The notes below the pieces were generated by a model, which did no database searches, was not told where the DNA came from, and saw nothing but the letters and a program-made list of their open reading frames with translations. A DNA stretch of 55,715 bases. Source: Bacteroidales bacterium (GTDB taxonomy: Bacteria; Bacteroidota; Bacteroidia; Bacteroidales; Muribaculaceae). How positions within the stretch are numbered: the stretch's first letter is position 1; each line of letters begins with the position of its first letter. Positions 19,411 to 39,632 of this stretch are shown one piece after another. The stretch lies in contig JAAVFK010000008.1 of NCBI GenBank assembly GCA_014800785.1, positions 14,074 to 69,788 on the forward strand, in the 5' to 3' direction. The translations under genes and the position numbers were made by a program.

Positions 19411-20544
19411 ATGAAACTCAAAGAACCTGTACGCATACGAGAAAGGGAGCTTGCCGGCGGCAATCGTTCTCTCTATCTCGATATATATTTCAACGGCCGC
19501 CGACACTATGAATTTTTGAAACTATACCTGATCCCCGAGACTGATCGGCGAAGCCGTCAGACAAATGCGGACACACTGGCACTTGCACAGAGGATCAAAA
19601 GCGAACGCATCCTCGAACTCCAGGAGAACCGGTTCAACTATAAGACTCGCCGGGGGGTAGGACTGTTGAAGTATTTCGACAAGCTCACAGAGGACAAGCG
19701 AGCGGAGGTATGTAGTACAACTGCAACCCTGTGGAGAAATACCCGAAATCATCTAATCCGTTTTCTCGCCGGTAAAGATATTCCGTTGACGAAGATAGAC
19801 GCCGAGTGGCTCCGGGCCTTCCAAAAATACCTGAAGCATGACGCAATCAGTTACGAGTCCAGATATAGAAAATATCAGGACCGAGAGACGCCGCGGCTTG
19901 GGCCCAGCACCGCCGCTTTGTACTATCAGAAACTGTGTGCATGTCTCAATGATGCCGAGAAGAACGGCCTTCTCGATGCCAATCCTGTAAAGCGGGTAAA
20001 AGCGTTGGAGATGCCCGAGGGACACCGCAACTACCTGACGATAGAGGAACTGCGCACACTGATTGAAACACCTATTGAAGACAACCGAGTTCGGAGAATG
20101 TTCCTTTTTTCGTGTCTTACAGGCCTCCGATGGTCAGATATCCGGAACATGAAATGGGGACAGCTGACCGAAACATCGGGAATGATTCGTTATAATTTCA
20201 TACAACAGAAAACACGGAAAACCGAATATCTGGACCTTAACCCTCAGGTTACCGAGTTACTCGGGCGGCGACGTGACCCCGAATGCACTGTTTTCGATAA
20301 CATAACTAACAGCGTATTGAACAGCAAGCTCGCCCAGTGGGTTCTGAGAGCAGGGATAAAGAAGAGAATCACGTTTCACTGTGCCCGGCACACTTTCGCC
20401 GTCATGATGCTGACACTCGACACCGACATTTACACGATCTCGAAACTTCTCGGGCACCGGCAACTCGAGACAACACAGATCTACGCAAAGATTGTGGACT
20501 CAAAGAAACGGGCTGCAGTCAACAGGATTCCTGATCTTCTATGA
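19411..20544 (+). CDS. int: site-specific tyrosine recombinase (phage integrase family)
   Basis: The C-terminal catalytic region is LTGLRWSDIRNM...HCARHTFAVMMLTL...LLGHRQLETTQIYAKI (R..HxxR..Y). The N-terminus is of the SAM-like/arm-binding type common in Bacteroidales integrases. Confidence 0.9.
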   Translation: MKLKEPVRIRERELAGGNRSLYLDIYFNGRRHYEFLKLYLIPETDRRSRQTNADTLALAQRIKSERILELQENRFNYKTRRGVGLLKYFDKLTEDKRAEVCSTTATLWRNTRNHLIRFLAGKDIPLTKIDAEWLRAFQKYLKHDAISYESRYRKYQDRETPRLGPSTAALYYQKLCACLNDAEKNGLLDANPVKRVKALEMPEGHRNYLTIEELRTLIETPIEDNRVRRMFLFSCLTGLRWSDIRNMKWGQLTETSGMIRYNFIQQKTRKTEYLDLNPQVTELLGRRRDPECTVFDNITNSVLNSKLAQWVLRAGIKKRITFHCARHTFAVMMLTLDTDIYTISKLLGHRQLETTQIYAKIVDSKKRAAVNRIPDLL

Positions 20545-22363
20545 TCGGGTAGAAGTCACCCTTGAGCAGTGCCGACCTTCCCGACTCCGAGAAACTCGCG
20601 GTTATTTTCTCGCAGACGTAGCGCTTTCCACGAATGACAAAAACCGACCGCACATCCGGAACCGAAGAAGACAACCACCTGAAAGTGGTTTTCATCTTCG
20701 GTTCGATTTTGTTTATAATCCTTGATCTTGCGGAGTTTCTGTCGTTCAGACGCAATGAGAAATGAGCGAAACCGAAATTTTCCCAATCGTCCGAGATCAT
20801 GATGTTCTCCACGGCCGGAGCCGGCAACAATGGCTCCTTGTTGAAAAATCGCGATCCATCATACCACCCCACGAAAATACGGTCGAAAAACTCCGTCTTT
20901 TTCTCCTTCTCTCCTGCTTCGAGAGTCAGAACCGAGAACGGCTTTTGATAATTGAGAAACTTCTCCTCGTCGTCATCTTCCTTAACGTCGTCGTCATCAT
21001 TCGCCGAAAGCGACAGAAAGAGAATCCGACCGTACTTTTTTTCCGTCTCATCTATTCGTGCCGGCACGAACTCGATCTCCTCCTTAGGTGCGTCGTCACT
21101 CTCGTTGACGATCCGGCCACCGAAAAGATTAACCGGGCGTAGCCTGCTCGGAAAATACCAGAGTATTCTGTCGAAAAGATCATCCACCCCGCGCAATATC
21201 CTGTCATACGGTTCTACGGCAAAATAAGCATCACAATCGGCGGCATAAAATAACTTCTCGATTCTTCCTCCCCGGAGATGCTCACCGTTCCACATCCGGA
21301 ACCCCTTATTGGCCGCTATAAGCTCGGCAAGCGTGTCATAACACACGACGCGGTCCGAGTCCTTCCATGCGCTGATGAACCAATCGCACGAGTACCACTT
21401 CCACGTTGCGTTATCGCAATCCTTATAAACGAGGTTTGTCACCTCCCTGTACTTGCACTCCGTCTCATCGTCGGCCACGTCCGACGAATGTTCCTCCGTT
21501 ACATTTTCCAGACAAACCGGTTTCTTGTCCTCCAGGATATCGGCTGTGAAACGGAAGTCTATATGTTTAGCCCGGTGATCGAACTCGAACTCACCCCCCA
21601 TAAAGAGTTCCAGTTTGCGGAAATACTCCTCAACTGTCCAACGAGGCAGAGCGTTTGCAAACTCCGGCATTGCCCAGGCTGCCGGGAGTGTGTTGCACAC
21701 CAACAGCCACCGGTGCTCTTCCGACTGCTCCCATGGTGAAAGATTGACCGTATATCCCACGGCGTCGCAAATCTGCCTGGTAAGCCAAAGCAGATAAGGC
21801 TGCCATGACAAACCGGTGCATTTTTTTTCATTCCATACATAATGGCCCTTGTGCTGTGAAGCATCATCAACGACGTATTCGGCCAGATTCTGAATATTTC
21901 CTGAATAATCGTTGACCCATGGTAACGCCACGAATCTACCGTCTGAGGTTTGAGGGTTCCACGCCTTTTCAGGTGTAATGGATGCTGTTCGAGTCGCCTC
22001 CGGTTCTCCGAGTGGAAGATCGTTAATAAAAATAGTATCGAAGGTCTTGTCAAAATTCTGTTCCGACCGACCCTCCAGAAACTGCCCTTGAACTTCCGAC
22101 TCCGAAATGCCGGTTATCGTCAGCACGCCGGACTTTACGAAATTGATGTCTGCAATCTCGCAATCGAACCTCAATTTGTCCGCTAACACATCTGCGCGGT
22201 TCACATGGCCGAAAATCGCCAGATTTTCCGGACACCCGCGCAACGGGAAAGTAATAGAAAGCGTGTAGGCGTCAGAATCGGAGAACATCCGGTTTTCTGA
22301 TACGTAATCGAACGACGAGCCCTTCTTGAGCACTGCCTGCGCTCCATTGATTCTGATCTGCAT
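20519..22363 (-). CDS. phage structural protein downstream of the tape measure (distal-tail/host-recognition candidate), function unassigned
   Basis: 614-aa ORF whose ATG overlaps the tape-measure stop (TAATG). No motif was recognised, so the call is from position only. Confidence 0.55.
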   Translation of the reverse strand: MQIRINGAQAVLKKGSSFDYVSENRMFSDSDAYTLSITFPLRGCPENLAIFGHVNRADVLADKLRFDCEIADINFVKSGVLTITGISESEVQGQFLEGRSEQNFDKTFDTIFINDLPLGEPEATRTASITPEKAWNPQTSDGRFVALPWVNDYSGNIQNLAEYVVDDASQHKGHYVWNEKKCTGLSWQPYLLWLTRQICDAVGYTVNLSPWEQSEEHRWLLVCNTLPAAWAMPEFANALPRWTVEEYFRKLELFMGGEFEFDHRAKHIDFRFTADILEDKKPVCLENVTEEHSSDVADDETECKYREVTNLVYKDCDNATWKWYSCDWFISAWKDSDRVVCYDTLAELIAANKGFRMWNGEHLRGGRIEKLFYAADCDAYFAVEPYDRILRGVDDLFDRILWYFPSRLRPVNLFGGRIVNESDDAPKEEIEFVPARIDETEKKYGRILFLSLSANDDDDVKEDDDEEKFLNYQKPFSVLTLEAGEKEKKTEFFDRIFVGWYDGSRFFNKEPLLPAPAVENIMISDDWENFGFAHFSLRLNDRNSARSRIINKIEPKMKTTFRWLSSSVPDVRSVFVIRGKRYVCEKITASFSESGRSALLKGDFYPIIEDQESC

Positions 22364-25300
22364 TATTTTTTAAATTTAGGTGACTTGTTTTTCATCAAGC
22401 GCTCGTAGGCCTCCTGCGCCTTCTTGGTTCCGAGATCACCCGTTACCGTGTTGACCGTCACAAACGGCTCGTTCAGTCGATCATTGAGCCTGTCGAGCAC
22501 TGCGAGCATCCTGCGGTTCTCCGTAGGATCTGCGCCACTATTGTAATTATTTGTAACAACAGCCTGCGTTTTCTCCGGCCGCGATGCGAGAACAACGGGC
22601 GTGGTAATCGAACGCGACACATCATCCGGAGATATCGACCCGATCGTGTTCGTGCGCTGGGCGTAGTCGAGCGCCTCAAGCATTGGGCGGATGCGTGGGT
22701 TCTTCGTCAGCTTCTGCGAGGCCACCCATTCCCCAGCATGGACGACGCCCGCCTCACGGTCAGCCGGGCCGTCGGGTGTAAAACCGCCCGACATGTATCC
22801 TTGAGAAGCGGATGCCTGCTGTTGCTTCTTGATGGCAGCGACCTGTAACATACCGGCCGCTACGGCCATACTCGCCGCAATAGGCGCGAGGACATGACCC
22901 ACCACAGGGATAGCCGCAGCCGAACCGTAAGCGTTAATCGCGTTCGTTGCGGTCTGTGCTATAGCCTGAATAACCTGCATGGCGAACATCTTCCGGTTCG
23001 CCTCGTTCTTGGCCTTGGCAATCTCCTTTTCTTTCTGCTCCTCAAGTTTCCTGGTCTTATACGCGTTTCCTTCGGCTAAAGAAATTTCTGTGTCGTATCG
23101 CTTGGTGATCTGCGCCGTCAGACTCTCCAGATCCGCCTGCATCATGGACGTTGCCTGTGAGAATATTTCCGACATACCCGAACCGATCACCTGCATTGAG
23201 CCGACAAGAGCCTTTCCACCGTCGGACTGCAACCACTCGGCAGACTTTGCAATTATATTCTTATTGTCTGCCGCTTCCGCTTGGTTGTACTTCTTCTGAA
23301 GAGCAAGTTTGGCGATCTGGTACGCTTCCTCTATCTCCAGTTTCCGCGCGGCGTTATCTTCACATGCCGATAACTCCGCCTTATAGACTTCGTCGAGCAG
23401 TGCGAGCTCCGCCTGATAGTCGCGGTCGTTCTTCTCCTGAGGGAGCATGAAATCGCGCATCTTGTTAACCTGATCATCATGCGCCTTGGCGAGATCTGCG
23501 GCCTCCTTCCGCTCTCGTTCGGCTATCTGGTTTACCAAGGTTAAATAGGCGCTCTGAGCATCGAGATACTTTTTGTGCGCCTCCGGATCCGGTTCCCTTT
23601 CCTCGGTAGTTTCCGAGTGTCGGAAATAAAGGTCTTTTACTGAACCGAGATGTCGCACGTTCTCCTCCTCGGTCTTCTTGTTGTACTGTTCGGCTGTCAG
23701 AAGATTATCAGCCCATGCCTGTTGAATCTCGGTGAGCTGTTCGCGGTGATAGAGATCTTCTTCATCGATAGACTTTGCATTTGTGTCCTGCCTCTGCTTG
23801 GCCAATGCTTCCTCATATTTCGCCTGGTTCTCGATCCGTTCGCGGTTCGAGAGATCCTGACGCTTTAGAATCCTCTCATAATACTCTACGTTGATCCGGT
23901 CCAACTCGGCCGTATAATCGTAGGCCGAGTAAATATTTTTATTACCCTGCTCATCAACGGTGAGCCCCTGCGACTTCTTGATCAGAGCGAGAGCTTCCTG
24001 AATTGCTTTCCACTCTTTTTCTCTTGAGAACCGGTCCCCGGTCTTTGCTCCGCCGTCACCTTGGGGATCTACACCGTCTCCTAATTCGAGAGTCCCGTCT
24101 GTTTTGCTTGCCGGAGCTTCGCCCGCCCCACGGGTGTAGAGTTCCCATCGGATCTGATCAAGCCATTCTGTAACCTCATTGGCCGAAAGATTCTTTACCG
24201 TAGGATTCTGGCCGAGGTCTCCCCACAAAACACGCCCACCCTTTTTCTCGTCCGCGAGTTTCTGAAGCTCCGAGGCCTGCTTCTCCAGCCACTCAGTGTT
24301 CCAATTCATAAACGGCCGTTGTTCGCTCTGTATATCCTCAATGGCACCCATGGCCTCAGTGTGAGCACCCATAAGGGAGATCATGTCGTTGACGATCGCC
24401 GCCGGCGCTCGGTCCTCATTTTTGTTTCGTCTTCCCCAAAAATTGACCTTGCTGACCTGTTCGATCAGTTTTTTAGTCTCCGGGCTAAGAGTATTCGTAG
24501 TGGTCAGCTCGATGACTACTTTCTGTGAAAGTGCCGACGCCTCCCTAACATCTTTTCCCTCCTTCCGCAAGGATTCATATAGCTCGTTCTGAAAATCTCC
24601 CAACCCCTTGGAATATGACTCATCGGCCTGCTTGACGGCGTTATCGATCGCTCTCTGTTGAGCTGCATATCTGGCCATATTTCCGAGCCGGCGGTAGGCC
24701 TCCGCAAGATTTGTTATCTCTCCGCGCTCGTTGATCAGGCCTGACAGATATTGCCCATACTGCGAGATGATCTGCTGTTTGGCCATTTCATATTCCTTCG
24801 TGCCCTTCTTCGCTACATCGAGTTTGGCAAACAGCAAGTCTATCTGACGCTGTTCCTCCACGAGACCATCGGTAAAGTCTACCGCCGCTTTCTTTGCACC
24901 GGCGAAGGCCTCCGTAAATTTATCTGTTGCCTTGACTGCGTTTTTAATGATCATTACCAGCGTGGCGAGAACCGAAACGACGAGACCGATTGCATTTGTC
25001 TTCATCGCTTGATTCAGAAACGTAAACGCTGTTCCTGCCGCTTTCAACCCATGCGTGAACGCTATAACGACTACTTCGCACAGACCGACGGCATACTTGA
25101 ATAAACCGACGGCCTTAGTGCCGAGAGTGACGGCGGCCGTCCATGCGAGTTGCAGACCCTTGGCAATTCCGATGGCGGCATAATAAGAGCCGATTGCAAC
25201 CGTCAGGGTGACAATCTCCTTGCGGTATGAAATAAAGAAACCCACCATTGCCGAGAGAGCCTTCAACATCAGAGTCGACGAAGAAATCATCATACTCATC

Positions 25301-26712
25301 ACCGGCTGCAACTTCTCGCCGAGTTCGACCGATAGCTCCTTCACGCTTTTTTTCGCCTTGTCGAGGCTTGCCTGTACCGTATTGTTCTGTACTTCAAATT
25401 CATTGTCAATCGAGATTGCATCTCTGAATGCTTCATTGGCCACCTCCTGCTGGCTTTTCACGTCCGCGATATGATTCGCGAGAGTTGAAAGTGTGGAAAT
25501 TGCACGCGATCCGTTCTCTCCCATATCCCTGAACATAGGAGAGAGCACGTCCATTTTGCCGGCCTGTTTCAGCGTCTCCAACAATTCGATCAGAGCCGAG
25601 TTCATATCCTCCTTGACAAGAGCCGAGAACTTCTGCACATCCATGCCCGCCACCCTGGCATACTTCGCCGGATCCTGATAGATTCGCACGATCACCTGCG
25701 AGAGAGCCGTCGCCGACGCTTCGAGGTTTTGATTATTCGAGTCAAGAACCGCCGCGAACGCCATAATCTGTTGTACTGTCATTCCCGCCTGCGCGCCGAC
25801 ACCACCCATGCGAGACGCAAAATCGGCGATGTAGGGTGCCGATGCAGAGCAGTTCTGTGAAAGCTCATTTATCACAGAACCGACCGAGAGGAGCGCCTTT
25901 TCAGTCCCCAAACGTTGTTCATCACCAAAAATTCCCGTGAGTTTCGATAGCGTGAGTGTCGCTCCCGATCCGAGATCATCGAGAGCTACGTTTATTTTGT
26001 CGGCCGCGCGGACGAACCCGAGGACGTCCTCCTGCGAAGTCTTACCGAGACGGCCCGCCTCCTGGGCCAACTGGTTTAATTCTTCCCTGGAGGTGCGCGT
26101 GTCCATCTTCTTGAACTCCTCGTTTAGCGCGCCGACCTGCGACTCAGTCATGCCTGTAAATTTCCTGACGTTTGCCATCTCCTGTTCCATTTCGGCAAAA
26201 GCATTTACGGCTGATCTTCCAGCCACCACAAGACCGGTTATAACAGCGACTGCGCTTGTTATGGCCAATTGGTATTTCTCCCAGTGGCCATTGATCTTAT
26301 CCCAAAAAGATTTATCCGGATTCATCGAATCATTAAGAGACTCCATCTCGGCTCTCACTGCCTTAATTTTTGCTATCTGAGCATCCCAAGCCTTAGAGCC
26401 TCTTTCAATTCCATTTAGTTCATTTTTCAGCTGAGAGAGTGCTTTATTCAGTTCACGTGGGGATGCTCTATTGATATTTTTAAGCGTCTCCTCGGTCTTC
26501 TTCCCGCTATTTGTAACCGCATTAATCGAATTCTCGACAGTCTTCAGCTCTCTCGAGAGCTGTTTCATTCTGACCTTATTCCCTGCCTGAGCTGCTGCGT
26601 CCATCTGCTGCTGAAGGCTCTGCGCCTTCTGGCGCAAAGCGTCGAGCATAGACTTCGCTTGATTTCCGTTAACGGAAATTACAACGGATGCTTTAGTAAC
26701 TGAATTTGCCAT
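22363..26712 (-). CDS. tail tape measure protein
   Basis: 1449 aa with a coiled-coil N-terminus and a TP901-type TMP core (FTGMTESQVGALNEEFKKMDTRTSREELNQLAQEAGRLG...ASRMGGVGAQAGMTVQQIMAFAAVLDS). Central hydrophobic segments and a long Glu/Lys/Ala-rich helical region follow. Confidence 0.9.
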   Translation of the reverse strand: MANSVTKASVVISVNGNQAKSMLDALRQKAQSLQQQMDAAAQAGNKVRMKQLSRELKTVENSINAVTNSGKKTEETLKNINRASPRELNKALSQLKNELNGIERGSKAWDAQIAKIKAVRAEMESLNDSMNPDKSFWDKINGHWEKYQLAITSAVAVITGLVVAGRSAVNAFAEMEQEMANVRKFTGMTESQVGALNEEFKKMDTRTSREELNQLAQEAGRLGKTSQEDVLGFVRAADKINVALDDLGSGATLTLSKLTGIFGDEQRLGTEKALLSVGSVINELSQNCSASAPYIADFASRMGGVGAQAGMTVQQIMAFAAVLDSNNQNLEASATALSQVIVRIYQDPAKYARVAGMDVQKFSALVKEDMNSALIELLETLKQAGKMDVLSPMFRDMGENGSRAISTLSTLANHIADVKSQQEVANEAFRDAISIDNEFEVQNNTVQASLDKAKKSVKELSVELGEKLQPVMSMMISSSTLMLKALSAMVGFFISYRKEIVTLTVAIGSYYAAIGIAKGLQLAWTAAVTLGTKAVGLFKYAVGLCEVVVIAFTHGLKAAGTAFTFLNQAMKTNAIGLVVSVLATLVMIIKNAVKATDKFTEAFAGAKKAAVDFTDGLVEEQRQIDLLFAKLDVAKKGTKEYEMAKQQIISQYGQYLSGLINERGEITNLAEAYRRLGNMARYAAQQRAIDNAVKQADESYSKGLGDFQNELYESLRKEGKDVREASALSQKVVIELTTTNTLSPETKKLIEQVSKVNFWGRRNKNEDRAPAAIVNDMISLMGAHTEAMGAIEDIQSEQRPFMNWNTEWLEKQASELQKLADEKKGGRVLWGDLGQNPTVKNLSANEVTEWLDQIRWELYTRGAGEAPASKTDGTLELGDGVDPQGDGGAKTGDRFSREKEWKAIQEALALIKKSQGLTVDEQGNKNIYSAYDYTAELDRINVEYYERILKRQDLSNRERIENQAKYEEALAKQRQDTNAKSIDEEDLYHREQLTEIQQAWADNLLTAEQYNKKTEEENVRHLGSVKDLYFRHSETTEEREPDPEAHKKYLDAQSAYLTLVNQIAERERKEAADLAKAHDDQVNKMRDFMLPQEKNDRDYQAELALLDEVYKAELSACEDNAARKLEIEEAYQIAKLALQKKYNQAEAADNKNIIAKSAEWLQSDGGKALVGSMQVIGSGMSEIFSQATSMMQADLESLTAQITKRYDTEISLAEGNAYKTRKLEEQKEKEIAKAKNEANRKMFAMQVIQAIAQTATNAINAYGSAAAIPVVGHVLAPIAASMAVAAGMLQVAAIKKQQQASASQGYMSGGFTPDGPADREAGVVHAGEWVASQKLTKNPRIRPMLEALDYAQRTNTIGSISPDDVSRSITTPVVLASRPEKTQAVVTNNYNSGADPTENRRMLAVLDRLNDRLNEPFVTVNTVTGDLGTKKAQEAYERLMKNKSPKFKK

Positions 26713-26730
26713 ATCTCAAAATTTTTATGG

Positions 26731-26738
26731 CAAATGTA
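26731..26738 (-). promoter_or_regulatory. -7 box TACATTTG directly upstream of the tape measure gene
   Basis: The reverse complement of CAAATGTA matches TAnnTTTG, about 20 nt upstream of the ATG at 26712. Confidence 0.45.
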
Positions 26739-26810
26739 AGCCAACGACTAAATAAAGAAAAGGACGATACACGCTCTCGTGTCTCCCAATCCGGATAAAG
26801 AAATCTTGCG

Positions 26811-26840
26811 AAAGTCGGCATCCCGAAAGATGCCGACTTT
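26811..26840 (-). terminator. intrinsic terminator after the 43-aa ORF
   Basis: 12-bp stem AAAGTCGGCATC/GATGCCGACTTT with loop CCGAAA. It lies between the small ORF stop (26851) and the TMP promoter box. Confidence 0.55.
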
Positions 26841-26850
26841 CTGAGAGGGC

Positions 26851-26982
26851 TTACATCGTGAAGCCGAGGAAATACCCTATCCACAGGGCACCGAAGAACA
26901 GCGCAACGGCCATGGCGCAAACCACGATGAAGCCGAGCACGTTTGCGGCAGTGATAGCCGCCTCAATGATTTTTTTTCTCAT
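26851..26982 (-). CDS. small hydrophobic protein (43 aa), not in the supplied ORF track
   Basis: ATG..TAA reads MRKKIIEAAITAANVLGFIVVCAMAVALFFGALWIGYFLGFTM, with one or two TM segments. It is followed by its own terminator. Confidence 0.4.
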   Translation of the reverse strand: MRKKIIEAAITAANVLGFIVVCAMAVALFFGALWIGYFLGFTM

Positions 26983-27076
26983 TGCATTTATTAATTAGTT
27001 AATTAAAAATATTCCCCTACATTCCCTCCGATTGCGCGAAAATGATTAATTTTACAGCGCATTTATTAATTAGTTT

Positions 27077-27118
27077 ACTGGCAACATGCTCGTGAGAGTG
27101 GTGGTTGCCAGTTTTTTT
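27077..27118 (+). terminator. terminator-like hairpin with T-run on the + strand (orphan)
   Basis: Stem ACTGGCAAC/GTTGCCAGT (27077-27085/27104-27112) followed by TTTTTT. No + strand gene lies upstream. Confidence 0.45.
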
Positions 27119-27136
27119 GTGTCCGTTTTCTGAATA

Positions 27137-27144
27137 CAAAGATA
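27137..27144 (-). promoter_or_regulatory. candidate -7 box TATCTTTG inside the non-coding gap
   Basis: The reverse complement of CAAAGATA matches TAnnTTTG. It would drive the 43-aa ORF through a ~150-nt structured leader. Confidence 0.35.
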
Positions 27145-27680
27145 CAAATTAATTCACACATATACAAGTAAATAGCTAAGAAATTAGCGCAAACGCAGTT
27201 GTAAAATATATGTTTTACAACATATATTTTTCAAGTAAAAACAAGTTCAAAACAACCGACCGCCAACGCTTATTAGAAGAAGTAAAGGGGTGCGAAATTT
27301 AACACGCTGAAATTCAGCGTGTGGGGTTTGTAAGGGGGCCGTGCCCCCTTACTGCTGTCTGCAAAGACCCCCCACCGCCCTAAATTGTGATTCAATGCGC
27401 TACTCTTCCCCTTGCGGAATATGCAAACACATATTCTGCAAATAATTGCATAATAAAATAAAATTTCTCGGCAAGCAATTAAATAAAACACATGGGTTAG
27501 CACGATGCCCCACACGCTCCATCTCGGCCAGCATCGGCGGTGCTGGCCCTCCGTGAGAGGGTCAGCACAAATTAACCTTATTCCTATTATTTTACTTTCA
27601 TTGCAAATATTTTTTGCATTGATGTTGATTTTTTATCCCAGCGGTGGTGAGCCTCCGAACGGAAATTTTAATTTTCGATC

Positions 27681-27966
27681 GGAGGCGTGACTGGTGGTAA
27701 TTTCCGTGCTCATGGCCCTGGCTCGATTCGGAGGGTACGGAAAGCGGCCCCGGGTGCTCGCACCGGGGGTTGCGGGTGCCCTCCGCGGCGGTGCGCAGCC
27801 TCGGGACCAGGGCGGAGCACGTTTCGGTCCGGAGGCGTGACTGGTGGTAATTTTTGTGCTCAAGACCCTGGCTCGATTCGGAGGGCACGGAAAGCGGCCC
27901 CGGGTGCTTGCACCGGGGGAGAGCGGGTGCCCTCCGCGTTGGTGCGCAGCCTCGGGACCGGGGCGT
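27681..27966. repeat. two head-to-tail ~150-nt G+C-rich repeat units
   Basis: Unit 1 is 27681-27830 and unit 2 is 27831-~27966. They differ by about a dozen substitutions and one 1-nt indel. Both start GGAGGCGTGACTGGTGGTAATTT. Confidence 0.9.
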
Positions 27967-28310
27967 GTGTAGCGCAGGCGGGACGTCACGGAGGCCGCGA
28001 CGTCCGGAGATGGCGTAGGGGCGGGGGAGCCGGAGACGGAGGCCGGAGGGAGGTCAGGCTGGCGCGGATTAAGGAACATGCGGCCCGGCTGTCCGAGGGT
28101 GTGACGAAAAGAAAGAAAAAAACAATGTAGTGAAGTGCATAGGCCCGCAGGGGCTTTGGGCTTCGCATTCCTATTGCCGGAAAGCGGTTGCCCTCAGGTC
28201 AGGCGGGGCGCATGTTCCCCGCGACGGCGGACCTTCCGGAGGCCGGAGGCGGAGTCGCCCCCGGACCTGCCATCGGAGGACAGTCGGGGCCGGAGTGACA
28301 GGCATGCCGG

Positions 28311-28367
28311 AGCGGAGCACGTTCCGGTCCGGAGGCGTGACTGGTGGTAATTTCCGTGCTCATGACC
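28311..28367. repeat. third copy of the repeat-unit junction
   Basis: AGCGGAGCACGTTCCGGTCCGGAGGCGTGACTGGTGGTAATTTCCGTGCTCATGACC matches 27811-27867. It ends 1 nt before the stop of the spanin-like gene. Confidence 0.9.
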
Positions 28368-28368
28368 T

Positions 28369-28932
28369 TTAATGTAATTTCCAGATGCGGTATACGACCC
28401 AGCCGATCATTGCGAGACCCAGCAGGAACGCGGCGATATCAAGCCATGGAGGCGACACAGTCCGCGCCCGGCTTTGTTCATCGGCTGTGCGTGATAGTTC
28501 GGAATCGGTTCGTGAGACGGACTGCGACAGTGATTTTGTATTGTCGACGGTCGAATCATTGCGGGCGATGGTGCGCGTCTCTGACCGGGATCCTGAAGAA
28601 TTTGTGACAACATGCGGCCGATGAAATACGACCATGACCTGGGATCCGTCGGAGTCCCGGCTCAAGACGATCGAATCGGCCGAGAAAGAGGCCGCGGACG
28701 TTTCAAATATTGAGCGGTTAATCTCCATAAGCTCCGATCTGACAGCAACAGCCGAGGCGATGCTGTCAGAAACGGAGATTGAGAGAGAGGAAGAGCAGCT
28801 GTCAACAGACTCGGTCGAGTGAGTCGACACGCGGCGTGCGGCGCATCCAGTGCAAAGAACGAGTCCCAGCAGAAGGGTGCCCACGAGGAGAGAGAACAGA
28901 ATAATGTTATCTGTCGTATTCTTTGAGTTCAT
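28369..28932 (-). CDS. membrane protein with N-terminal lipoprotein signal and C-terminal TM helix (unimolecular-spanin-like)
   Basis: The N-terminus is LLVGTLLLGLVLCTGC (lipobox). A Ser-rich middle is followed by the C-terminal PPWLDIAAFLLGLAMIGWVVYRIW. The start overlaps the endolysin stop (ATGA). Confidence 0.5.
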   Translation of the reverse strand: MNSKNTTDNIILFSLLVGTLLLGLVLCTGCAARRVSTHSTESVDSCSSSLSISVSDSIASAVAVRSELMEINRSIFETSAASFSADSIVLSRDSDGSQVMVVFHRPHVVTNSSGSRSETRTIARNDSTVDNTKSLSQSVSRTDSELSRTADEQSRARTVSPPWLDIAAFLLGLAMIGWVVYRIWKLH

Positions 28933-29612
28933 AGGTTAGCATATTCAGATTTTGCATCGAAGCCCGGACAGGGCTTCGATGCAAATTCCCTGTGGCCATG
29001 AACCGACGCAGCGGGATATTTGCGTTTCAGTTCCCTGATAATAGAGCGTAGGGACTCCTTTTGGGCCGGTGTGCGTGTATCGAGTCCCACGTTCTGCCAG
29101 TTCGGGTTGGACCTTGGCGGACAACCGCCGCAATAGCACACGCCGATGGAGCGCGTATTGTGCCCGACCGTGTGCGCTCCGGCGTAATCCTCCGGGCGAC
29201 CCTTGAAGACTTTTCCGTTCGCGTCGATATACCAGTGATAGCCGATGTCGGACCATCCGTTGGCCAGATGCATCTGCCGGATCTGCTCTACCGTGAAATT
29301 CTCCCCTTGCGGGGTTGCGGTGTAGTGAACGATGATCTCGTCAACACGGCGTTTTGATGTCGGCTTTCCCGTAAGCGGGAAAGCCGATGACGAAGCCGAG
29401 TTGATCCATGTCTCGGCGCTCATGAGCGCCGACCAGGTACTTTGTCCGACGATGCCATCGGCGGCGAGTCCATGCGATCGCTGGAACTCCAGCACGGCCT
29501 CGAGAGTGAGGGCGCCGAAGATTCCGTCCGGATATAGATTGAGCAGGTTCTGGAGACGTTTCACGTCCTCGCCCCGAGAGCCCTTCTTAATTGTCTGCAT
29601 TTTCTGATTCAT
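28929..29612 (-). CDS. endolysin: peptidoglycan-binding domain plus N-acetylmuramoyl-L-alanine amidase (Amidase_2/PGRP type)
   Basis: RGEDVKRLQNLLNLYPDGIFGALTLEAVLEFQRSHGLAADGIVGQSTWSAL (PG_binding_1), then IIVHYTATP...GWSDIGYHWYIDANGKVFKGRP...GAHTVGHNTRSIGVCYCGG. Confidence 0.9.
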   Translation of the reverse strand: MNQKMQTIKKGSRGEDVKRLQNLLNLYPDGIFGALTLEAVLEFQRSHGLAADGIVGQSTWSALMSAETWINSASSSAFPLTGKPTSKRRVDEIIVHYTATPQGENFTVEQIRQMHLANGWSDIGYHWYIDANGKVFKGRPEDYAGAHTVGHNTRSIGVCYCGGCPPRSNPNWQNVGLDTRTPAQKESLRSIIRELKRKYPAASVHGHREFASKPCPGFDAKSEYANL

Positions 29613-31322: not shown

Positions 31323-31859
31323 TTACTTCAATGTCTCGGCGCAGATGGCGAGAATCTCGGCCTCGGTGGCGAACTGATAGTCCTCGATCTTGAGGAACTC
31401 CTCGTCAGCCTCGGTCTTGGTGTATACGTCAGCCGTGTTGGCCTTCTTGCCGATCTCAGCGGTCAGGGTTGCCGAGAGGTTCGCATCTTCGCCCAGGGCG
31501 TCGGCGATCTCCTTGAGGGTGTCGAGAGTTTCCGGAGCGCCACCTACGATCTCGGTGATCTTGGAGTCGACATAGGTCTTCTCGGCGATCTTGTCGGTGT
31601 CGACCGAAACTGTGCCTGAGGCAGCCTTGAGGCCGGTTCCGGCTTTCATCACACCGGCCGTCGTAGCCGAGGCAGTGTTTACATTGAGCGAACCGTCAGC
31701 GCCGACGGTCATGTTCGTTCCGGGTTTCACGATACCGGGCACGGTTGCTGATGCGATCGGAGCCGAGACGGCTGCGGCCTGCTCCTTGATTCGATCGTTG
31801 ATTTTGACGAGCGCGGCCTGGAATATATCCGCGCTCAGGGCTTTCTTAATTTCTGCCAT
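31323..31859 (-). CDS. tail-fibre-like protein
   Basis: TVPGIVKPGTNMTVGADGSLNVNTASATTAGVMKAGTGLKAASGTVSVD followed by YVDSKITEIVGGAPETLDTLKEIADALGED. The latter motif is common in phage tail-fibre shafts. Confidence 0.55.
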   Translation of the reverse strand: MAEIKKALSADIFQAALVKINDRIKEQAAAVSAPIASATVPGIVKPGTNMTVGADGSLNVNTASATTAGVMKAGTGLKAASGTVSVDTDKIAEKTYVDSKITEIVGGAPETLDTLKEIADALGEDANLSATLTAEIGKKANTADVYTKTEADEEFLKIEDYQFATEAEILAICAETLK

Positions 31860-36120: not shown

Positions 36121-36933
36121 TTAGAAAAAATAACCTCCGCTTTTCCTGGAGTTCCGGAAGGGCTCGACCCTGAACAGGGCCTTGAGCTCCGAGGCGTGCC
36201 ACTCCGGGAACTCTTCCGGACAATCGCGGATTATATTGACGATATCGAAATTGTGAATCTTAGACACGTTCCCGTGAATGACCGCGTCTACCACGAGCGC
36301 TATCTGCGCTGCCACCTGCCGGCGCATCGGTGAGCCGGTGCCCGACTGCCGCTCCAGACGGAGAGCGTCCATCAGCTGCGCCGAATAGAAAGAGACGGCG
36401 AGATTGGTTTCTACCGAGACGGCGAGTTTTGAATCTTCGTACCACTCCTCCAGGCGTGACAATTCCGGGCGTAGCCGGAAAGGTGAGAGCGTGAAGAAGA
36501 GCGAGCGGCGAAAGAACTTCGCCTGCTCGGTTTGGGTCCAACCCTTTATTTTGTGGGCCGTTCTGAGGAAATGGTCGAGAGCGTCATCCCTGCGGTCGGC
36601 CATCGAGCGCACGAGCGCCTCGGTTCTGTGGGCCGAAGCTACGGCGATCGTGTCGTTACCCAAAGTCGCGAACCCGTTGGGTGTGAGCACCAGGTCGAGC
36701 GCCGGCACGGCACGTCGGATTGTCTCGGCGCCGACAATTTTGCGGATGTCAGCAATATGGTCGGCCGGCATCCGGTCGAGCATTGAGAGTGGACACACGG
36801 TCGAATCTACCCAGGCCTCGGCCTCGTCGACAAACGGGGCGAGCTTTGTCAGATATGGCGAAGTTCCCGGCGCTTCCCTCAGAACGTTCGGGAGAAACGA
36901 CTTCAGTTCATCAGTTGAGGAAAATAGTATCAT
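36121..36933 (-). CDS. hypothetical phage protein (270 aa)
   Basis: ATGA overlap with the portal candidate's stop. Confidence 0.6.
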   Translation of the reverse strand: MILFSSTDELKSFLPNVLREAPGTSPYLTKLAPFVDEAEAWVDSTVCPLSMLDRMPADHIADIRKIVGAETIRRAVPALDLVLTPNGFATLGNDTIAVASAHRTEALVRSMADRRDDALDHFLRTAHKIKGWTQTEQAKFFRRSLFFTLSPFRLRPELSRLEEWYEDSKLAVSVETNLAVSFYSAQLMDALRLERQSGTGSPMRRQVAAQIALVVDAVIHGNVSKIHNFDIVNIIRDCPEEFPEWHASELKALFRVEPFRNSRKSGGYFF

Positions 36934-38273
36934 TTCGTTTTCTGTGCGTTTTGTGAGATATCCACCTTCTTTGCGTCGGTGTGTTCGTCGAGTGTCGTCA
37001 GCTGCATGAACGGACAGACGGGCTTCACGCCGCGCCAGCCGTTGAAACCGATGATCAGGTCGTGAGCTCCGAAAAGTATGTCCCGGTACGGCTTCTGGAG
37101 CGCCTGGGCGATCGTGTAGAGCTCGCGCTTGTCGGATCCCGAGTTGTTTGTCTGCGCCTTGCCCGGAACCGAACCCACGAGGTTCGAATGAACCCTCATT
37201 GTGAAGCAGACCATGTTGACGGCCTCCTGTATGTCGGTTTCCCAGTCACCCCCCTCCTTCGAAGAATCGACCTTATTGATCGTCACCTCCTTTACGGTCT
37301 GCCCCGTCGGGTTGACATACTCGGTCGAGAAGAGCACCTTGCCGGAGTTCTCGGCGCCGGTGATAAAGTCGATGATGTTCTGTTTCTCGGCGGCGATGCG
37401 TTCCATCTGCTTCACGCGGTCTGTGATGTGTTCCGCCTCGAAAATGTGCTTCCAATAGGTGTTGGCAATCGTGATATGATATCTGATCGGAGCCGAATTG
37501 CGCAGCTTCGCTTCCTTGGCGGTTGCGATGAGTTTCTTGATGTCGTACCACTTCGATTTGAAGAGCGACGCATAGCTCGGGATCGGATAGTATGTGTGAT
37601 CCACGGTCGGGATACGCGACACAATGGCATACTTGCACTCCTTGTCACCGCGTTCTACGCGTTCCCGAAGGTCGGCCAGCGGGGCCGACGGATCGAGAAG
37701 CGGGATTGATTCGACCTTATGAGCTGCCGAGGATCCGAGGCGCCAGTTAGCGAAATGCACCTTGTCGATGCGTCCCATGTCGTCGGCTTTGCTGAACCGG
37801 CAATAACAGGCCTCCTTGCGTACCGCGCGAACGATTTTTGAGCGGTCGCGGCTGAGGATGACTACGGTCACGGCGAATCCGAAATGCTTGAAATCTATGC
37901 ACGAGCCGAGAAAGAGCTGAGGGATGGCGTTGGCCTTGAAGAAGTCCTCCACTTCCGAGGCCACCGGTCGGGACACCTCCGAGGTGTCATACTGCAGGCC
38001 GGCGCCGTAGCAGATCTCCGCGTTGAAGTCCTGGCACGTCGACAGGGTCTCATCGGATTCGATGAGATCCATAATCTTGTATGGCATCTGATTGTCCGCT
38101 CCCCAGGGCATATACCAGTCTCCCGAGTCGAGCCGGATCGGTGCGATCTGTCCCTGCTCACGGAACACGGATGCGCTTTCGGGCACGAAAGCGACGGCCG
38201 ATTTATTGTCGGGCATCATGCGCACGTCGATTCCGAGGAACGGTGATGAAATATCGGTTGCAGAAGTGTTCAT
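36930..38273 (-). CDS. putative portal protein
   Basis: 447 aa, located downstream of the large terminase and upstream of head-completion-sized genes. The call is from size and position only. Confidence 0.5.
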   Translation of the reverse strand: MNTSATDISSPFLGIDVRMMPDNKSAVAFVPESASVFREQGQIAPIRLDSGDWYMPWGADNQMPYKIMDLIESDETLSTCQDFNAEICYGAGLQYDTSEVSRPVASEVEDFFKANAIPQLFLGSCIDFKHFGFAVTVVILSRDRSKIVRAVRKEACYCRFSKADDMGRIDKVHFANWRLGSSAAHKVESIPLLDPSAPLADLRERVERGDKECKYAIVSRIPTVDHTYYPIPSYASLFKSKWYDIKKLIATAKEAKLRNSAPIRYHITIANTYWKHIFEAEHITDRVKQMERIAAEKQNIIDFITGAENSGKVLFSTEYVNPTGQTVKEVTINKVDSSKEGGDWETDIQEAVNMVCFTMRVHSNLVGSVPGKAQTNNSGSDKRELYTIAQALQKPYRDILFGAHDLIIGFNGWRGVKPVCPFMQLTTLDEHTDAKKVDISQNAQKTK

Positions 38274-38540: not shown

Positions 38541-39632
38541 TCAGAGGAATGATCGATTGAACTGAGATTTGAAGATATCGGGCGAGAAACATCCCGCCAT
38601 TGCGGGTCTTACGTCGGCAAGCTGCCATGTGATAGAGGCTGTCTGTTTCTCCTGTGTCGAATCTGAGAATGAGAGTTCGGTTTCTGTCACGACGGCCGGC
38701 ATGAGCACCGGAGCTGCGAGCGGATCCGGAAAGAACGGAACGCTCACGTCCCATGACTCGCCGAGCTGACGGACAGTGTCCAGTTCCGGCTCGGAGAGTG
38801 GCAGCGTCACGGCCTTGTACGAGTCGGTGATCCTACGGTCATAGGCGCGGAGCTCGGTGCCGACCGCAGCTGTCGATATCTCGAGTCCCTGCGAGAACGT
38901 CACCGCTCCGAGAGTGTAGAGCCGTTCCGGTACATTGAACGTGTTCCGGAACTCGACGAACGAACGATCCGAGAGCGACGGGTCGACGAAAAACGAGGCC
39001 ACGCGATCCCCGCAGTGAACATGAAGAGAGGCGAGATCCGCAGTGCCGGCTCCCGCTCCTTCGGCCAATTGGTCGAGCGGAGCGCGGAAAGTCCGGACGT
39101 ATGGCGCCGATGCCGGCGACATGACCGCCGTCAGAGTGTAATCACGCGGTCCGTCGGGTGCGATGAACGAAGCGTTCCAGGTCATCACACCCGAATTATC
39201 GCCCGGCGAGCGGAGAAGTGTCACCGCCGGTGTCACACCTTGCGGAATCCGCGATGCCTCCGAATGGAGAAAACGTGTTGTCAGCGACCGCTCCGGATCT
39301 CCGATCAGGAGCCGCGGAAAATGGATTGCGGGGAATCTCACGGCCGACGGTTTGAAAGCCGACGCGCCAGATGGCGACACCGACAGCGTGAAGATCATCA
39401 GGGGCTGTGAGTGCGAGCGCATGAACTCCTCCGCGATTTCGTCGAGCCGGAAGAGCGTCAGTTTACCTTTCCAGGGCCACAGACGCTGCGAATAGAGCGG
39501 TTCCGCCTGCGCTTCGGCCGAAAGCGAGACAATCACCGGCTCCCCGTCGGGCACCGGGACCGACACAAGAGCAAGCTCCGACGAGAGAAGAAACGAGCGT
39601 TTCCCGATAGAATTGAAGTCAATGGATTCCAT
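38541..39632 (-). CDS. hypothetical phage protein (363 aa)
   Basis: The ATG start overlaps the TerL stop by 14 nt. No motif was recognised. Confidence 0.6.
   Translation of the reverse strand: MESIDFNSIGKRSFLLSSELALVSVPVPDGEPVIVSLSAEAQAEPLYSQRLWPWKGKLTLFRLDEIAEEFMRSHSQPLMIFTLSVSPSGASAFKPSAVRFPAIHFPRLLIGDPERSLTTRFLHSEASRIPQGVTPAVTLLRSPGDNSGVMTWNASFIAPDGPRDYTLTAVMSPASAPYVRTFRAPLDQLAEGAGAGTADLASLHVHCGDRVASFFVDPSLSDRSFVEFRNTFNVPERLYTLGAVTFSQGLEISTAAVGTELRAYDRRITDSYKAVTLPLSEPELDTVRQLGESWDVSVPFFPDPLAAPVLMPAVVTETELSFSDSTQEKQTASITWQLADVRPAMAGCFSPDIFKSQFNRSFL

What the first reader, a model, noticed from the sequence alone, without database searches (positions are those of the whole stretch)
27640..28368. 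Tandem ~150-nt G+C-rich structured repeats in a protein-free gap of the prophage late region: candidate novel phage non-coding RNA
No credible ORF exists between the stop of the spanin-like gene (28369) and the 43-aa ORF/tape-measure gene. Only Arg/Pro/Gly-rich frames appear, on both strands. The high-coordinate half of the gap is conspicuously G+C-rich. It is built from two head-to-tail copies of a ~150-nt unit (27681-27830 and 27831-~27966) plus a third copy of the unit junction (28311-28367) that abuts the gene stop. The copies differ by a 1-nt indel (GGGGGTTGCGGG vs GGGGGAGAGCGGG), so this is not a duplicated coding segment. Each unit can be paired by hand into four helices: H1 27715-27721/27807-27813 (7 bp), H2 27729-27738/27776-27785 (10 bp), H3 a bulged hairpin at 27748-27768, and junction helix H4 GAGCACG/CGTGCTC at 27815-27821/27855-27861 (again at 28315-28321/28355-28361). 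GCCTCGGGACC (27798-27808) pairs with GGTCCGGAGGC (27826-27836) and encloses the 5' arm of H4, which is a pseudoknot topology. The first unit instead uses GCCTCCGA 27651-27658 with TCGGAGGC 27679-27686. Differences between copies fall into two classes. Some lie in loops or junctions: the H3 loop (C27759 vs T27909), the indel, and GC to TT at 27788-89. Others keep pairing: T27736.G27778 vs C27886-G27929, T27719-A27809 vs T27869.G27960, and G28321-C28355 vs G27821.T27855. Those three are wobble-compatible only if the + strand is the RNA, that is, antisense to the phage late genes. One terminal pair (G27715-C27813 vs A27865xC27964) argues the other way. With only 2-3 copies this evidence is suggestive, not proof. 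Large ornate RNAs are known from prophages of other phyla, so an analogous element, a self-processing RNA array or a protein-binding scaffold are all conceivable.
Basis: partly seen in the sequence, partly recalled or inferred. Interest (0 to 1): 0.78.

Follow-up and report, generated by a model that had tools for sequence, protein, structure and literature searches.

The report
Repeated structured non-coding element in prophage
A 730-base, G+C-rich, protein-free stretch of a Bacteroidales prophage is built of repeated, strongly folding units. It sits in the genome slot where related prophages carry a previously undescribed tandem structured RNA, so it is probably a fast-evolving phage non-coding RNA of unknown function, though this copy cannot yet be proven.

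Summary
Window 27640-28368 holds two head-to-tail ~150-nt units, a 57-nt junction present three times, and the hand-drawn helices. It has no credible ORF, no Pfam hit and no Rfam hit.

It lies between the lysis cassette (endolysin, spanin-like gene) and the tape-measure operon of an integrase-bearing Bacteroidales prophage.

No homologue exists in IMG/VR, GTDB genomes or JGI metagenomes, so covariation cannot be tested on this element. Only near-identical metagenome variants exist. In them the ~500-nt block 27831-28330 is duplicated, and the element has changed while the adjacent gene is identical.

Related prophages carry in the same slot a G-rich (antisense-strand), CGGAG-rich non-coding region. 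In one group this is a ~290-500-nt unit in 1-4 tandem copies. That unit covaries strongly: 96% of cells paired and 146 compensatory cells against 50 in shuffles. G.U to A.C is 118:14, which favours the strand antisense to the late genes. It matches no Rfam family.

A covariance model of that unit does not hit the window. The window element is therefore an analogue or extremely diverged relative, not a demonstrated member.

Best reading: a lineage-specific structured ncRNA array on the + strand (confidence ~0.5). Function is unknown. Rivals are a decaying repeat, a late-transcript 3' structure, and a DNA-level site.

The parts
27640..28368 (+). Whole G+C-rich repeat element, the candidate structured ncRNA. 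G-rich on the + strand, which is antisense to the phage late genes.
   Evidence: GC 0.63-0.72 and GC skew -0.15 to -0.27 on the late strand. MFE -413 kcal/mol, z -8.7 on +. CGGAG occurs 18 times against 2.5+-1.4 in dinucleotide shuffles; CTCCG occurs only 3 times. No Rfam hit. No Pfam hit.
27648..27690 (+). 5'-proximal hairpin GCCTCCGA...TCGGAGGC with an inner A/T stem. Its 3' arm overlaps the first junction copy.
   Evidence: -22.2 kcal/mol, z -5.3. 8/8 pairs.
27680..27829 (+). Unit copy 1 (150 nt). Holds H1 27715-27721/27807-27813 and H2/H3, a long bulged hairpin at 27729-27785.
   Evidence: Unit fold -83.5 kcal/mol, z -3.4 on + against -63.0, z -2.5 on -.
27830..27966 (+). Unit copy 2, 88-93% identical to copy 1 with a 1-nt indel.
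27811..27867 (+). Junction motif J2 (GCGGAGCACG..CCGGAGGCGTGACTGGTGGTAATTT..GTGCTCA). Also present as partial J1 at 27679-27717.
   Evidence: Local hairpin -17.2 kcal/mol, z -1.0, which is not exceptional on its own.
28311..28367 (+). Junction motif J3. It abuts the stop codon of the spanin-like gene.
27967..28310 (+). Segment X, single-copy in the window. It completes a ~500-nt period (27831-28330). It holds CCGGAGG/GGAGCC microrepeats at 28026-28048 and 28236-28254, and the long-range inverted repeat 28073-28094/28197-28218. Part of it is present twice in metagenome variants L001/L002.
   Evidence: Weak colinear nhmmer match (E=0.88) of 27995-28163 to the terminal unit of L012, around CGGAGGnCGGAGGGAGGTC.
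28095..28172 (-). Weak hairpin followed by a T-rich run (TTGTTTTTTTCTTTCTTTT) on the late strand. It is a possible terminator of the lysis operon. It aligns weakly with the hairpin plus T-run that follows the spanin gene in group-A phages, which I read by eye as a terminator.
   Evidence: Sequence. Alignment. The hairpin is not better than shuffles: -11.4 kcal/mol, z +0.2. No terminator was called by the scan. Tentative.
27290..27395 (-). Separate small conserved structured motif (GCGGT-GGGGGGT, a covarying hairpin, CCCC, then a second hairpin). It is not part of the repeat element but lies in the same gap.
   Evidence: Found by nhmmer in 45 hits, roughly 35 distinct loci, typically ~170-420 nt upstream of the tape-measure start. 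13 pairs, 6 with compensatory changes. G.U 27 against A.C 5 in late orientation. z -4.4. No Rfam hit.
27137..27144 (-). Bacteroidetes-type -7 promoter box TAtcTTTG on the late strand, upstream of the 43-aa ORF and tape-measure operon. A second box, TAcaTTTG, starts at 26738.
   Evidence: The full TTTG..TAnnTTTG pattern occurs 7 times elsewhere in the window against 0.5 expected.
28369..28932 (-). Spanin-like lipoprotein gene (187 aa), the last gene of the lysis cassette. Endolysin lies at 28929-29612.
   Evidence: endolysin matches phrog_822, 1e-51. The spanin-like protein has no relative in 5.8 billion proteins other than itself.
22363..26982 (-). 43-aa membrane ORF (26851-26982) and tape-measure gene (22363-26712), downstream of the gap.
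   Evidence: PF10145 1.8e-20. phrog_28 5.8e-43.

Best explanation
Window 27640-28368 is most likely a phage-encoded structured non-coding RNA, read from the + strand, which is G-rich and antisense to the late genes. It is built from a ~500-nt unit (junction J, a 150-nt rod-like hairpin module, and a CGGAGG-rich segment) that duplicates and diverges quickly. It occupies a dedicated 'RNA slot' between the lysis cassette and the separately promoted tape-measure operon. Related Bacteroidales prophages fill that slot with 1-4 tandem copies of a covarying structured RNA unit on the same strand.

Inferred mechanism, not shown: the RNA works by dosage and multivalency. Copy number varies, and the one-stranded motif CGGAG(G) is presented many times per unit. 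This fits a scaffold, sponge or self-assembling RNA acting during lysogeny or the lytic cycle, rather than a cis-regulatory leader.

Shown: the repeats, the folding potential, the absence of coding signal, the synteny, the strand skew, the motif enrichment, and the covariation in relatives.

Inferred: that this particular element is transcribed, from which strand, and what it binds.
For: - Repeats and helices are real. Folding z is -8.7.
- No coding signal was found. There is no Pfam hit and only low-complexity tblastx noise. Frame-breaking 1-nt indels separate copies and variants.
- Wobble changes favour the + strand 4:1. Copy differences avoid stems: 5 of 14 in paired columns against ~9 expected, with 1 breaking a pair.
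- Synteny: the order holin, endolysin, spanin-like gene, 1.3-1.9-kb gap, tape-measure gene is kept in loci L008-L016 and L040-L042. Lysis genes also lie upstream of the tape-measure gene in L017, L021-L029, L044 and L054, with wider spacing. Many Bacteroidales MAG prophages carry the same kind of gap.
- These gaps are GC-rich and C-skewed on the late strand.
- They are enriched for CTCCG on the late strand, which is CGGAG on the antisense strand: L012 20 against 4.1+-1.9; L041 15 against 3.4; L042 13 against 2.4.
- The group-A gaps hold a unit repeated 1-4 times in tandem with a ~500-535-nt period.
- On 23 copies the unit shows 57 predicted pairs, 96.2% of cells paired (shuffles 84.3+-0.6; slid controls 35-45%) and 146 compensatory cells (shuffles 49.7+-5.3; 0 of 500 shuffles reach the observed value).
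- G.U to A.C is 118:14 overall and 44:4 in the best helices, favouring the G-rich strand.
- The window element shows the same 500-nt period and copy-number polymorphism in L001/L002.
- It shares the string CGGAGGnCGGAGGGAGGTC, in colinear context, with group-A terminal units.
Against: - There is no homologue of the window element, so its own helices have no covariation support.
- The covariance model R1 of the relatives' unit finds nothing real in the window: the best match is 8.6 bits and consists of trivial hairpins. The same model scores 180-308 bits on more than 35 full-length copies in loci that supplied no training sequence.
- No Bacteroidetes-type promoter was found on the + strand upstream of 27640. 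No + strand terminator was found.
- The - strand also folds significantly better than shuffles.
- The element changed by 4% plus indels while the neighbouring gene stayed identical. That pattern could equally mean weak constraint.
- The G.U counts in relatives were made on a structure predicted in the G-rich orientation, which biases them somewhat.
- There are no expression data.
Confidence: 0.5

Rival explanations
1. It is a decaying or neutral tandem duplication. In this reading the element is a remnant or runaway expansion of a GC-rich repeat, perhaps descended from the relatives' RNA, with no function of its own. The hairpins would persist only because the ancestral unit was self-complementary and the copies are young.
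For: The element is unique to one phage lineage. It evolves faster than the adjacent gene and varies in arrangement between samples. Microsatellite-like CCGGAGG/GGAGCC runs point to slippage. The element fails the CM of the relatives' RNA. Assemblies break here.
Against: U1 and U2 are 7-12% diverged, yet stems are spared and wobble-compatible. The folding z-score is extreme. The same slot, strand skew, motif and period recur in lineages where constraint is proven. 730 nt of useless DNA is unusual in a ~35-kb phage genome.
Confidence: 0.2
2. It is a structured 3' untranslated or terminator-insulator region of the late (lysis) transcript, read from the - strand. Stable hairpins would block 3' exonucleases or stop read-through into the separately promoted tape-measure operon.
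For: The element starts directly at the spanin stop codon. The - strand fold is also significant, with z -9.9. A T-rich run follows a hairpin at 28095-28172 on the late strand. The tape-measure operon has its own -7 boxes at 27144 and 26738. Group-A phages have a hairpin followed by a T-run right after the spanin gene (alignment; read by eye, no terminator scan was run on those loci).
Against: The putative terminator hairpin is no better than shuffles. Most of the element (27640-28095) lies beyond it. Wobble changes are mismatches on the - strand, 4:1. In the relatives, A.C cells are rare and G.U cells common in the G-rich orientation. 700 nt and variable copy number are excessive for a terminator.
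Confidence: 0.15
3. It is a cis-acting DNA element: an array of short protein-binding sites (CGGAG) within larger direct repeats, next to an AT-rich region. It could act as a replication origin or enhancer, an R-loop-prone origin, or a packaging or recombination site.
For: The pentamer is 7-fold enriched over dinucleotide shuffles, and the hexamer CGGAGG ~12-fold, on one strand only. Large direct repeats lie next to an AT-rich 26983-27640 segment that contains palindromes. Contigs of many assemblies end in this gap. From my own knowledge, phage P4 crr has two 120-bp direct repeats that carry short iterons.
Against: In the relatives the equivalent sequence shows compensatory base changes across long-range helices. 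That pattern is expected for a folded single strand, not for duplex binding sites. The terminase and early/replication genes lie more than 10 kb away. Contig breaks are explained by the repeats themselves.
Confidence: 0.12

Closest known systems
Unnamed ~290-500-nt tandem structured RNA unit of related Bacteroidales prophages
   Same: - It occupies the same slot, between the lysis cassette and the tape-measure operon.
- It lies on the same G-rich strand, antisense to the late genes.
- It has the same ~500-nt tandem period and variable copy number.
- It shows the same one-stranded CGGAG enrichment.
- It shares the string CGGAGGnCGGAGGGAGGTC.
   Different: There is no significant sequence or CM match. 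The helix architectures do not correspond. The window element is more G+C-rich (65-72% against ~58-62%) and has a nested 150-nt duplication.
GOLLD and ROOL large ornate RNAs of prophages
   Same: They are large (about 580 to more than 800 nt), highly structured, protein-free RNAs encoded in prophages and phages, with unknown function. GOLLD rises during lysis (bioRxiv 10.1101/2024.12.08.627333).
   Different: No match to any Rfam model, even at E<=10. The element is not next to tRNA genes; the nearest tRNAs are at 4615 and 54523. It is built of tandem units of variable number, and it occurs in Bacteroidales. Multimeric cage formation was not tested.
CsrB/RsmZ-type sponge RNAs
   Same: Many copies of a short GGA-containing motif are presented on a structured RNA. 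In some bacteria the genes are duplicated in tandem (my own knowledge).
   Different: The motif here is CGGAG(G) and is found in stems, bulges and loops alike. No CsrA partner is known or was tested. By my recollection, which I did not test, Bacteroidetes lack CsrA.
Type III toxin-antitoxin antitoxin arrays (ToxI) and their phage mimics
   Same: They are tandem repeats of a non-coding RNA unit, and phages can vary the copy number (my own knowledge).
   Different: The units here are 150-500 nt rather than ~36 nt. No toxin gene follows, and no such Rfam family matched.

Membership tests
Any Rfam 15 family (including GOLLD, ROOL, OLE, HEARO, ribozymes and riboswitches) | Covariance-model match at or near the gathering score | tested here: not met
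   The whole window at gathering thresholds gave only 4 tRNAs. Region 26900-28500 at E<=10 gave three chance-level matches of 13-19 bits against gathering scores of 77-155.
Tandem RNA unit of related Bacteroidales prophages (model R1) | Sequence and structure match to the covarying core (291 positions, 78 pairs) | tested here: not met
   With filters off, the best window match is 8.6 bits and consists of hairpin-only alignments with more than 250 model positions deleted. Default filters gave no window, L001 or L003 hit at E<=0.001. In the same search more than 35 full-length copies in loci that supplied no training sequence scored 180-308 bits.
Tandem RNA unit of related Bacteroidales prophages (model R1) | Location between the lysis cassette and the tape-measure gene, on the strand antisense to both | tested here: met
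   R1 hits lie on the strand opposite to the tape-measure gene in every locus that is oriented on that gene. The window element is G-rich on the + strand.
Tandem RNA unit of related Bacteroidales prophages (model R1) | Tandem units of ~500 nt with variable copy number | tested here: met
   The window period is 500 nt, from 27831 to 28331. The block is duplicated in L001/L002. Relatives hold 1-4 copies at ~500-535-nt spacing.
Tandem RNA unit of related Bacteroidales prophages (model R1) | One-stranded CGGAG enrichment | tested here: met
   The window has 18 against 2.5+-1.4. Relatives have 8-20 against 2-4.
Protein-coding gene or duplicated coding segment | An open frame kept across copies, domain homology, or codon-periodic conservation | tested here: not met
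   1-nt indels separate U1 from U2 and the window from L001. Five ORFs inside the element, plus the flanking 43-aa ORF, gave no significant Pfam hit at E<=1. tblastx gave only low-complexity matches to unrelated high-GC contigs.
Diversity-generating retroelement template/variable repeat | Adenine-specific differences between the two repeats, and a reverse transcriptase nearby | tested here: not met
   The differences between copies are C/T, CC/TT, T/A, G/A, GC/TT and an indel, not A-specific. No ORF in the gap could encode a reverse transcriptase. The rest of the window was not scanned for a reverse transcriptase.
Type III TA antitoxin RNA array (ToxI-like) | Short (~34-36 nt) tandem repeats immediately upstream of an endoribonuclease toxin gene | tested here: not met
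   The units are 150 and 500 nt. The flanking genes are a spanin-like lipoprotein and a 43-aa ORF plus the tape-measure gene.
CsrB/RsmZ-type protein sponge | Repeated GGA motifs in hairpin loops, bound by a CsrA-family protein | tested here: inconclusive
   The motif is strongly enriched. Predicted unpaired probability at the motif is 0.45 against 0.33 overall, so exposure is only slightly raised. The partner protein was not searched for.

The most novel reading that the evidence does not exclude
The window element and the covarying units of related prophages would be fast-diverging members of one new superfamily of ~500-nt, tandemly arrayed, ornate RNAs of Bacteroidales prophages. They would be transcribed antisense to the late genes. 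Their copy number and repeated CGGAG(G) motifs would let them act as multivalent scaffolds: titrating a host or phage factor (for example the ribosome's normally sequestered anti-Shine-Dalgarno end, or an RNA-binding protein), or self-assembling into RNA-only particles as GOLLD and ROOL do.
Probability: 0.3. Interest if true: 0.82.

Novelty: new variant of a known kind. Interest (0 to 1): 0.64.

Why it matters
Large structured RNAs of prophages (GOLLD, ROOL) are among the least understood bacterial RNAs, and none is described for gut Bacteroidales. This work shows that a lineage of Bacteroidales prophages (found in MAGs labelled Muribaculaceae, Prevotella and Porphyromonadaceae) reserves a fixed slot between lysis and tail genes for long non-coding sequence. 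In one group that sequence is a strongly covarying unit repeated 1-4 times and absent from Rfam.

The window element would be a second, lineage-specific occupant of that slot. If both are RNAs, they offer a natural series in copy number and rapid sequence turnover under a conserved genomic role. That series could be used to find what such phage RNAs do.

If the window element proves to be a neutral repeat, it still marks a hypervariable region that breaks assemblies of these prophages.

Tried and rejected
- Rfam at gathering and at E<=10 on the window and on 11 relatives found nothing relevant.
- BLASTN against GenBank phages found no match. TBLASTN with the tape-measure protein found no relative above 37% identity.
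- Exact-pattern scans for the junction motif and the H2/H3 hairpins in IMG/VR, GTDB genomes and JGI metagenomes gave either nothing or six chance hits.
- Looking for relatives through the spanin-like protein failed. It is unique.
- Looking through the endolysin also failed. The nearest relatives (67-68% identical) sit in phages of different architecture, with no tape-measure gene downstream.
- nhmmer with the window element and with the group-A profile gave only an E=0.88 match.
- I first took C-skewed sequence after the endolysin in group C (L021-L029, L054) as the same feature. The alignment showed it is a spanin-like gene, so it was dropped.
- Sliding-window structure-conservation indices on group A could not tell the strands apart. 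G.U/A.C counts in covarying helices were used instead.
- CGGAG is not preferentially unpaired in the predicted ensemble. A simple 'loop motif' model is therefore not supported.
- Chi-site idea: CGGAG and CTCCG are equally frequent over the whole window (112 against 116). There is no genome-wide skew to support it.
- DGR, CRISPR-like array, ToxI-like array, ribozyme array and hidden-gene readings were rejected (see the membership tests).
- Literature searches found no description of such an RNA in Bacteroidales prophages.
Full report
1. WHAT IS IN THE SEQUENCE

- Two head-to-tail units lie at 27680-27829 and 27830-27966. They are 88-93% identical, with spacing that shifts from 150 to 151 nt.
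- The 23-mer GGAGGCGTGACTGGTGGTAATTT occurs three times, at 27681, 27831 and 28331. None is expected by chance.
- The third occurrence belongs to a 57-nt junction copy (28311-28367) that ends two bases before the stop codon of the spanin-like gene.
- All helices drawn by hand are true complementarities, and the differences between copies are as stated.
- The 731-nt stretch folds far better than dinucleotide shuffles on both strands: + strand -413 kcal/mol, z -8.7; - strand -320 kcal/mol, z -9.9.

Two refinements apply. First, the natural period is ~500 nt (27831 to 28331), with a nested 150-nt duplication. Second, the minimum-energy fold of one unit closes the unit by pairing CGTGCTC (27705-27711) with GAGCACG (27815-27821), stacked on H1.

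2. CONTEXT

The window carries a prophage. The integrase (19411-20544) is on the + strand and the late genes are on the - strand.
- Terminase large subunit, 39622-41250.
- Portal-like protein, 36933-38273.
- Tail-fibre-like protein, 31326-31859.
- Endolysin, 28929-29612.
- Spanin-like lipoprotein, 28369-28932.
- The 1.4-kb gap.
- A 43-aa membrane ORF, the 1449-aa tape-measure protein and a 614-aa protein.

The host uses Bacteroidetes promoters. TTTG..TAnnTTTG occurs 7 times against 0.5 expected. The only database record of the spanin-like protein is from a Bacteroidales MAG.

On the late strand, -7 boxes at 27144 and 26738 give the tape-measure operon its own promoter. The G+C-rich element therefore lies between two late transcription units. 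No such box precedes 27640 on the + strand.

3. NOT CODING, NOT A KNOWN RNA

ORFs of up to 148 aa exist on both strands. They are Arg/Gly/Pro-rich and have no Pfam match at E<=1. Single-base indels between the two units, and between the window and a metagenome variant, break their frames. tblastx against 100 related and pattern-matched loci gave only low-complexity noise. Rfam 15 gave nothing at gathering thresholds and only chance-level matches at E<=10.

4. NO HOMOLOGUES; A FAST-CHANGING, COPY-NUMBER-VARIABLE REGION

None of the following found the element elsewhere:
- GenBank phages.
- Exact 20-23-mers in IMG/VR, GTDB representative genomes and JGI metagenomes.
- blastn or nhmmer against 190 related loci.

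Only near-identical metagenome contigs exist. L003 confirms the window arrangement at 99.9% identity. L001 and L002 come from two other samples. They have a spanin gene identical to the window's, but an element that differs by ~4% plus two 1-nt indels and a rewritten A-rich loop. In them a second copy of the 28205-28311 segment sits where the window has unit 1, which means the ~500-nt block is duplicated. All these contigs break inside the repeats.

5. THE SAME SLOT IN RELATED PHAGES

The N-terminal 400 residues of the tape-measure protein retrieved 80 IMG/VR loci and 80 loci from Bacteroidales MAGs (Muribaculaceae, Prevotella, Porphyromonadaceae and others).

In the closer relatives the order holin, endolysin, spanin-like gene, 1.3-1.9-kb gap, tape-measure gene is kept. 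These gaps share several features.
- They are G+C-rich and C-skewed on the late strand, as in the window.
- They are enriched on that strand only for CTCCG, which is CGGAG on the antisense strand. The window has 18 against 2.5+-1.4. L012 has 20 against 4.1, L041 15 against 3.4 and L042 13 against 2.4. More than 30 of the loci counted show 8-20 against 0-3 on the other strand.
- The gaps fall into groups that do not align with each other.

In group A a unit is present in 1 to 4 tandem copies at a ~500-535-nt period: one copy in L008, two in L012, four in L105 and L110.

An alignment of 23 copies (median identity 62% over the 25 copies first collected) gives 57 consensus pairs.
- 96.2% of cells are paired, against 84.3+-0.6 in shuffles and 35-45% when partners are slid.
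- 25 pairs and 146 cells have changes on both sides, against 49.7+-5.3 cells in shuffles. None of 500 shuffles reaches this.
- Long-range helices and a hairpin have 7 of 10 pairs covarying.
- G.U cells outnumber A.C cells 118:14 overall, and 44:4 in the best helices. The folded strand is therefore the G-rich one, antisense to the late genes. The caveat is that the structure was predicted in that orientation.

No Rfam family matches these loci. I found no paper describing them. This is good comparative evidence that the slot holds a structured RNA in those phages.

6. IS THE WINDOW ELEMENT A MEMBER?

A covariance model of the unit core (R1: 291 positions, 78 pairs) finds more than 35 full-length copies in loci that supplied no training sequence, at 180-308 bits. 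It also finds two distant ones, L013 at 26 bits and L109 at 21 bits. In the window, L001 and L003 it finds only trivial hairpins of at most 8.6 bits.

nhmmer gives one colinear but non-significant match (E=0.88). It joins window 27995-28163 to the terminal unit of L012, around the shared CGGAGGnCGGAGGGAGGTC and the hairpin plus T-run next to the late genes.

Membership is therefore not shown. What is shared is the slot, the strand, the period, the copy-number behaviour and the short motif.

7. INTERNAL EVIDENCE FOR STRUCTURE IN THE WINDOW ELEMENT

Among unit 1, unit 2 and the L001 copy of unit 2, 14 columns vary. Only 5 fall in the 63% of columns that are paired in the + strand consensus fold, and only one breaks a pair.

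Four changes are wobble-compatible on the + strand only: T27736.G27778, T27869.G27960, G27821.T27855, and L001 G28076.T28216. One change (A27865xC27964) points the other way. This is suggestive, not proof.

8. MECHANISM

I commit to the following reading. The element is a + strand structured ncRNA made of quickly duplicating units. It acts by dosage and multivalency as a scaffold, sponge or self-assembling RNA. Confidence that it is a functional RNA is about 0.5. The specific activity is inferred only from the variable copy number and the repeated one-stranded CGGAG(G) motif.

In the covarying relatives that motif lies in a GGA bulge, twice in an apical loop, and in junctions. In the window it is only slightly more exposed than average in the predicted ensemble.

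The rivals are:
- a neutral or decaying repeat (0.2);
- a 3' structure or insulator of the late transcript (0.15), weakened by the strand evidence and by a putative terminator hairpin that is no better than chance;
- a DNA-level site array such as an origin (0.12), weakened by the compensatory changes seen in relatives.

9. COMPARISON AND NOVELTY

The closest described kind is the large ornate prophage RNAs GOLLD and ROOL. They too are phage-borne, large, highly structured and of unknown function. The window element is not a member of either. It is not near tRNA genes, and it is organised as tandem units.

I rate it a new variant of a known kind. Interest is 0.64. The window element alone is an unprovable singleton. 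It did, however, lead to a well-supported, apparently undescribed tandem RNA family in the same slot of gut Bacteroidales prophages, and both are now directly testable.

Noticed in passing
window 27290-27395 (- strand): A small conserved structured motif: invariant GCGGT-GGGGGGT, a 7-bp covarying hairpin, CCCC pairing back to the G-run, then a second hairpin and a T-rich tail. It occurs in roughly 35 related phage and prophage loci, typically ~170-420 nt upstream of the tape-measure gene. G.U to A.C of 27:5 favours the late strand. It has no Rfam match. It lies upstream of the predicted tape-measure promoter box, so it could be an sRNA or a leader/attenuator.
   Followed up: partly
L008-L012, L040, L041, L088, L103-L111, L114-L116, L177, L179-L181, L184-L196 (for example L110:257-2562, four copies): A strongly covarying ~290-500-nt structured RNA unit in 1-4 tandem copies, antisense to the late genes. 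It is absent from Rfam, and I found no paper describing it. Alignments A2 and A4 and model R1 were made here.
   Followed up: yes
L024:4275-4392 and L026:4741-4851: SAM-I/IV riboswitch aptamers (RF01725, 57-59 bits against a gathering score of 41) lie inside the enlarged lysis-to-tape-measure gap of two related phages. This suggests cargo genes under SAM control in that slot.
   Followed up: no
L024, gap coordinates 2233-2556 (locus ~5186-5509), and L054, gap coordinates 1490-1700: Arrays of 4-6 tandem 57-nt repeats lie a few hundred bases upstream of the tape-measure gene in two related phages. They are unrelated in sequence to the window element.
   Followed up: no
Contig ends in L033, L034, L107, L113-L116, L125, L126, L142, L143 and L003-L004: Many independent metagenome and MAG contigs end within ~0-1.3 kb upstream of the tape-measure gene. 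L033 and L034 end at the same base. The likeliest cause is assembly breaks at the repeats or population heterogeneity, but physical genome ends were not excluded.
   Followed up: partly
window 621-692 and 723-794 (+): Two tRNA genes with identical sequence lie in tandem, 30 bases apart, in the host part of the window.
   Followed up: no
window 27198-27234: An A/T-rich perfect palindrome (GTTGTAAAATAT/ATGTTTTACAAC, extended to 16+16 nt) overlaps sigma-70-like hexamers on both strands, ~60 nt upstream of the late-strand -7 box. It is a possible operator.
   Followed up: no
window ~28955-28995: A strong 15-bp hairpin (TTTGCATCGAAGCCC...GGGCTTCGATGCAAA) lies inside the 3' end of the endolysin coding sequence, just before the overlapping start of the spanin-like gene.
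   Followed up: no
A1 columns ~475-520 (for example L012 ~5525-5560): A near-perfect palindrome, GGTCAAATTTCCGCATCGTGGAAATTGACC, is conserved in some group-A gaps (L012, L088, L008, L010) but not in L041 or L009. It lies between the small motif and the RNA units. It is either an operator-like site or a hairpin.
   Followed up: no
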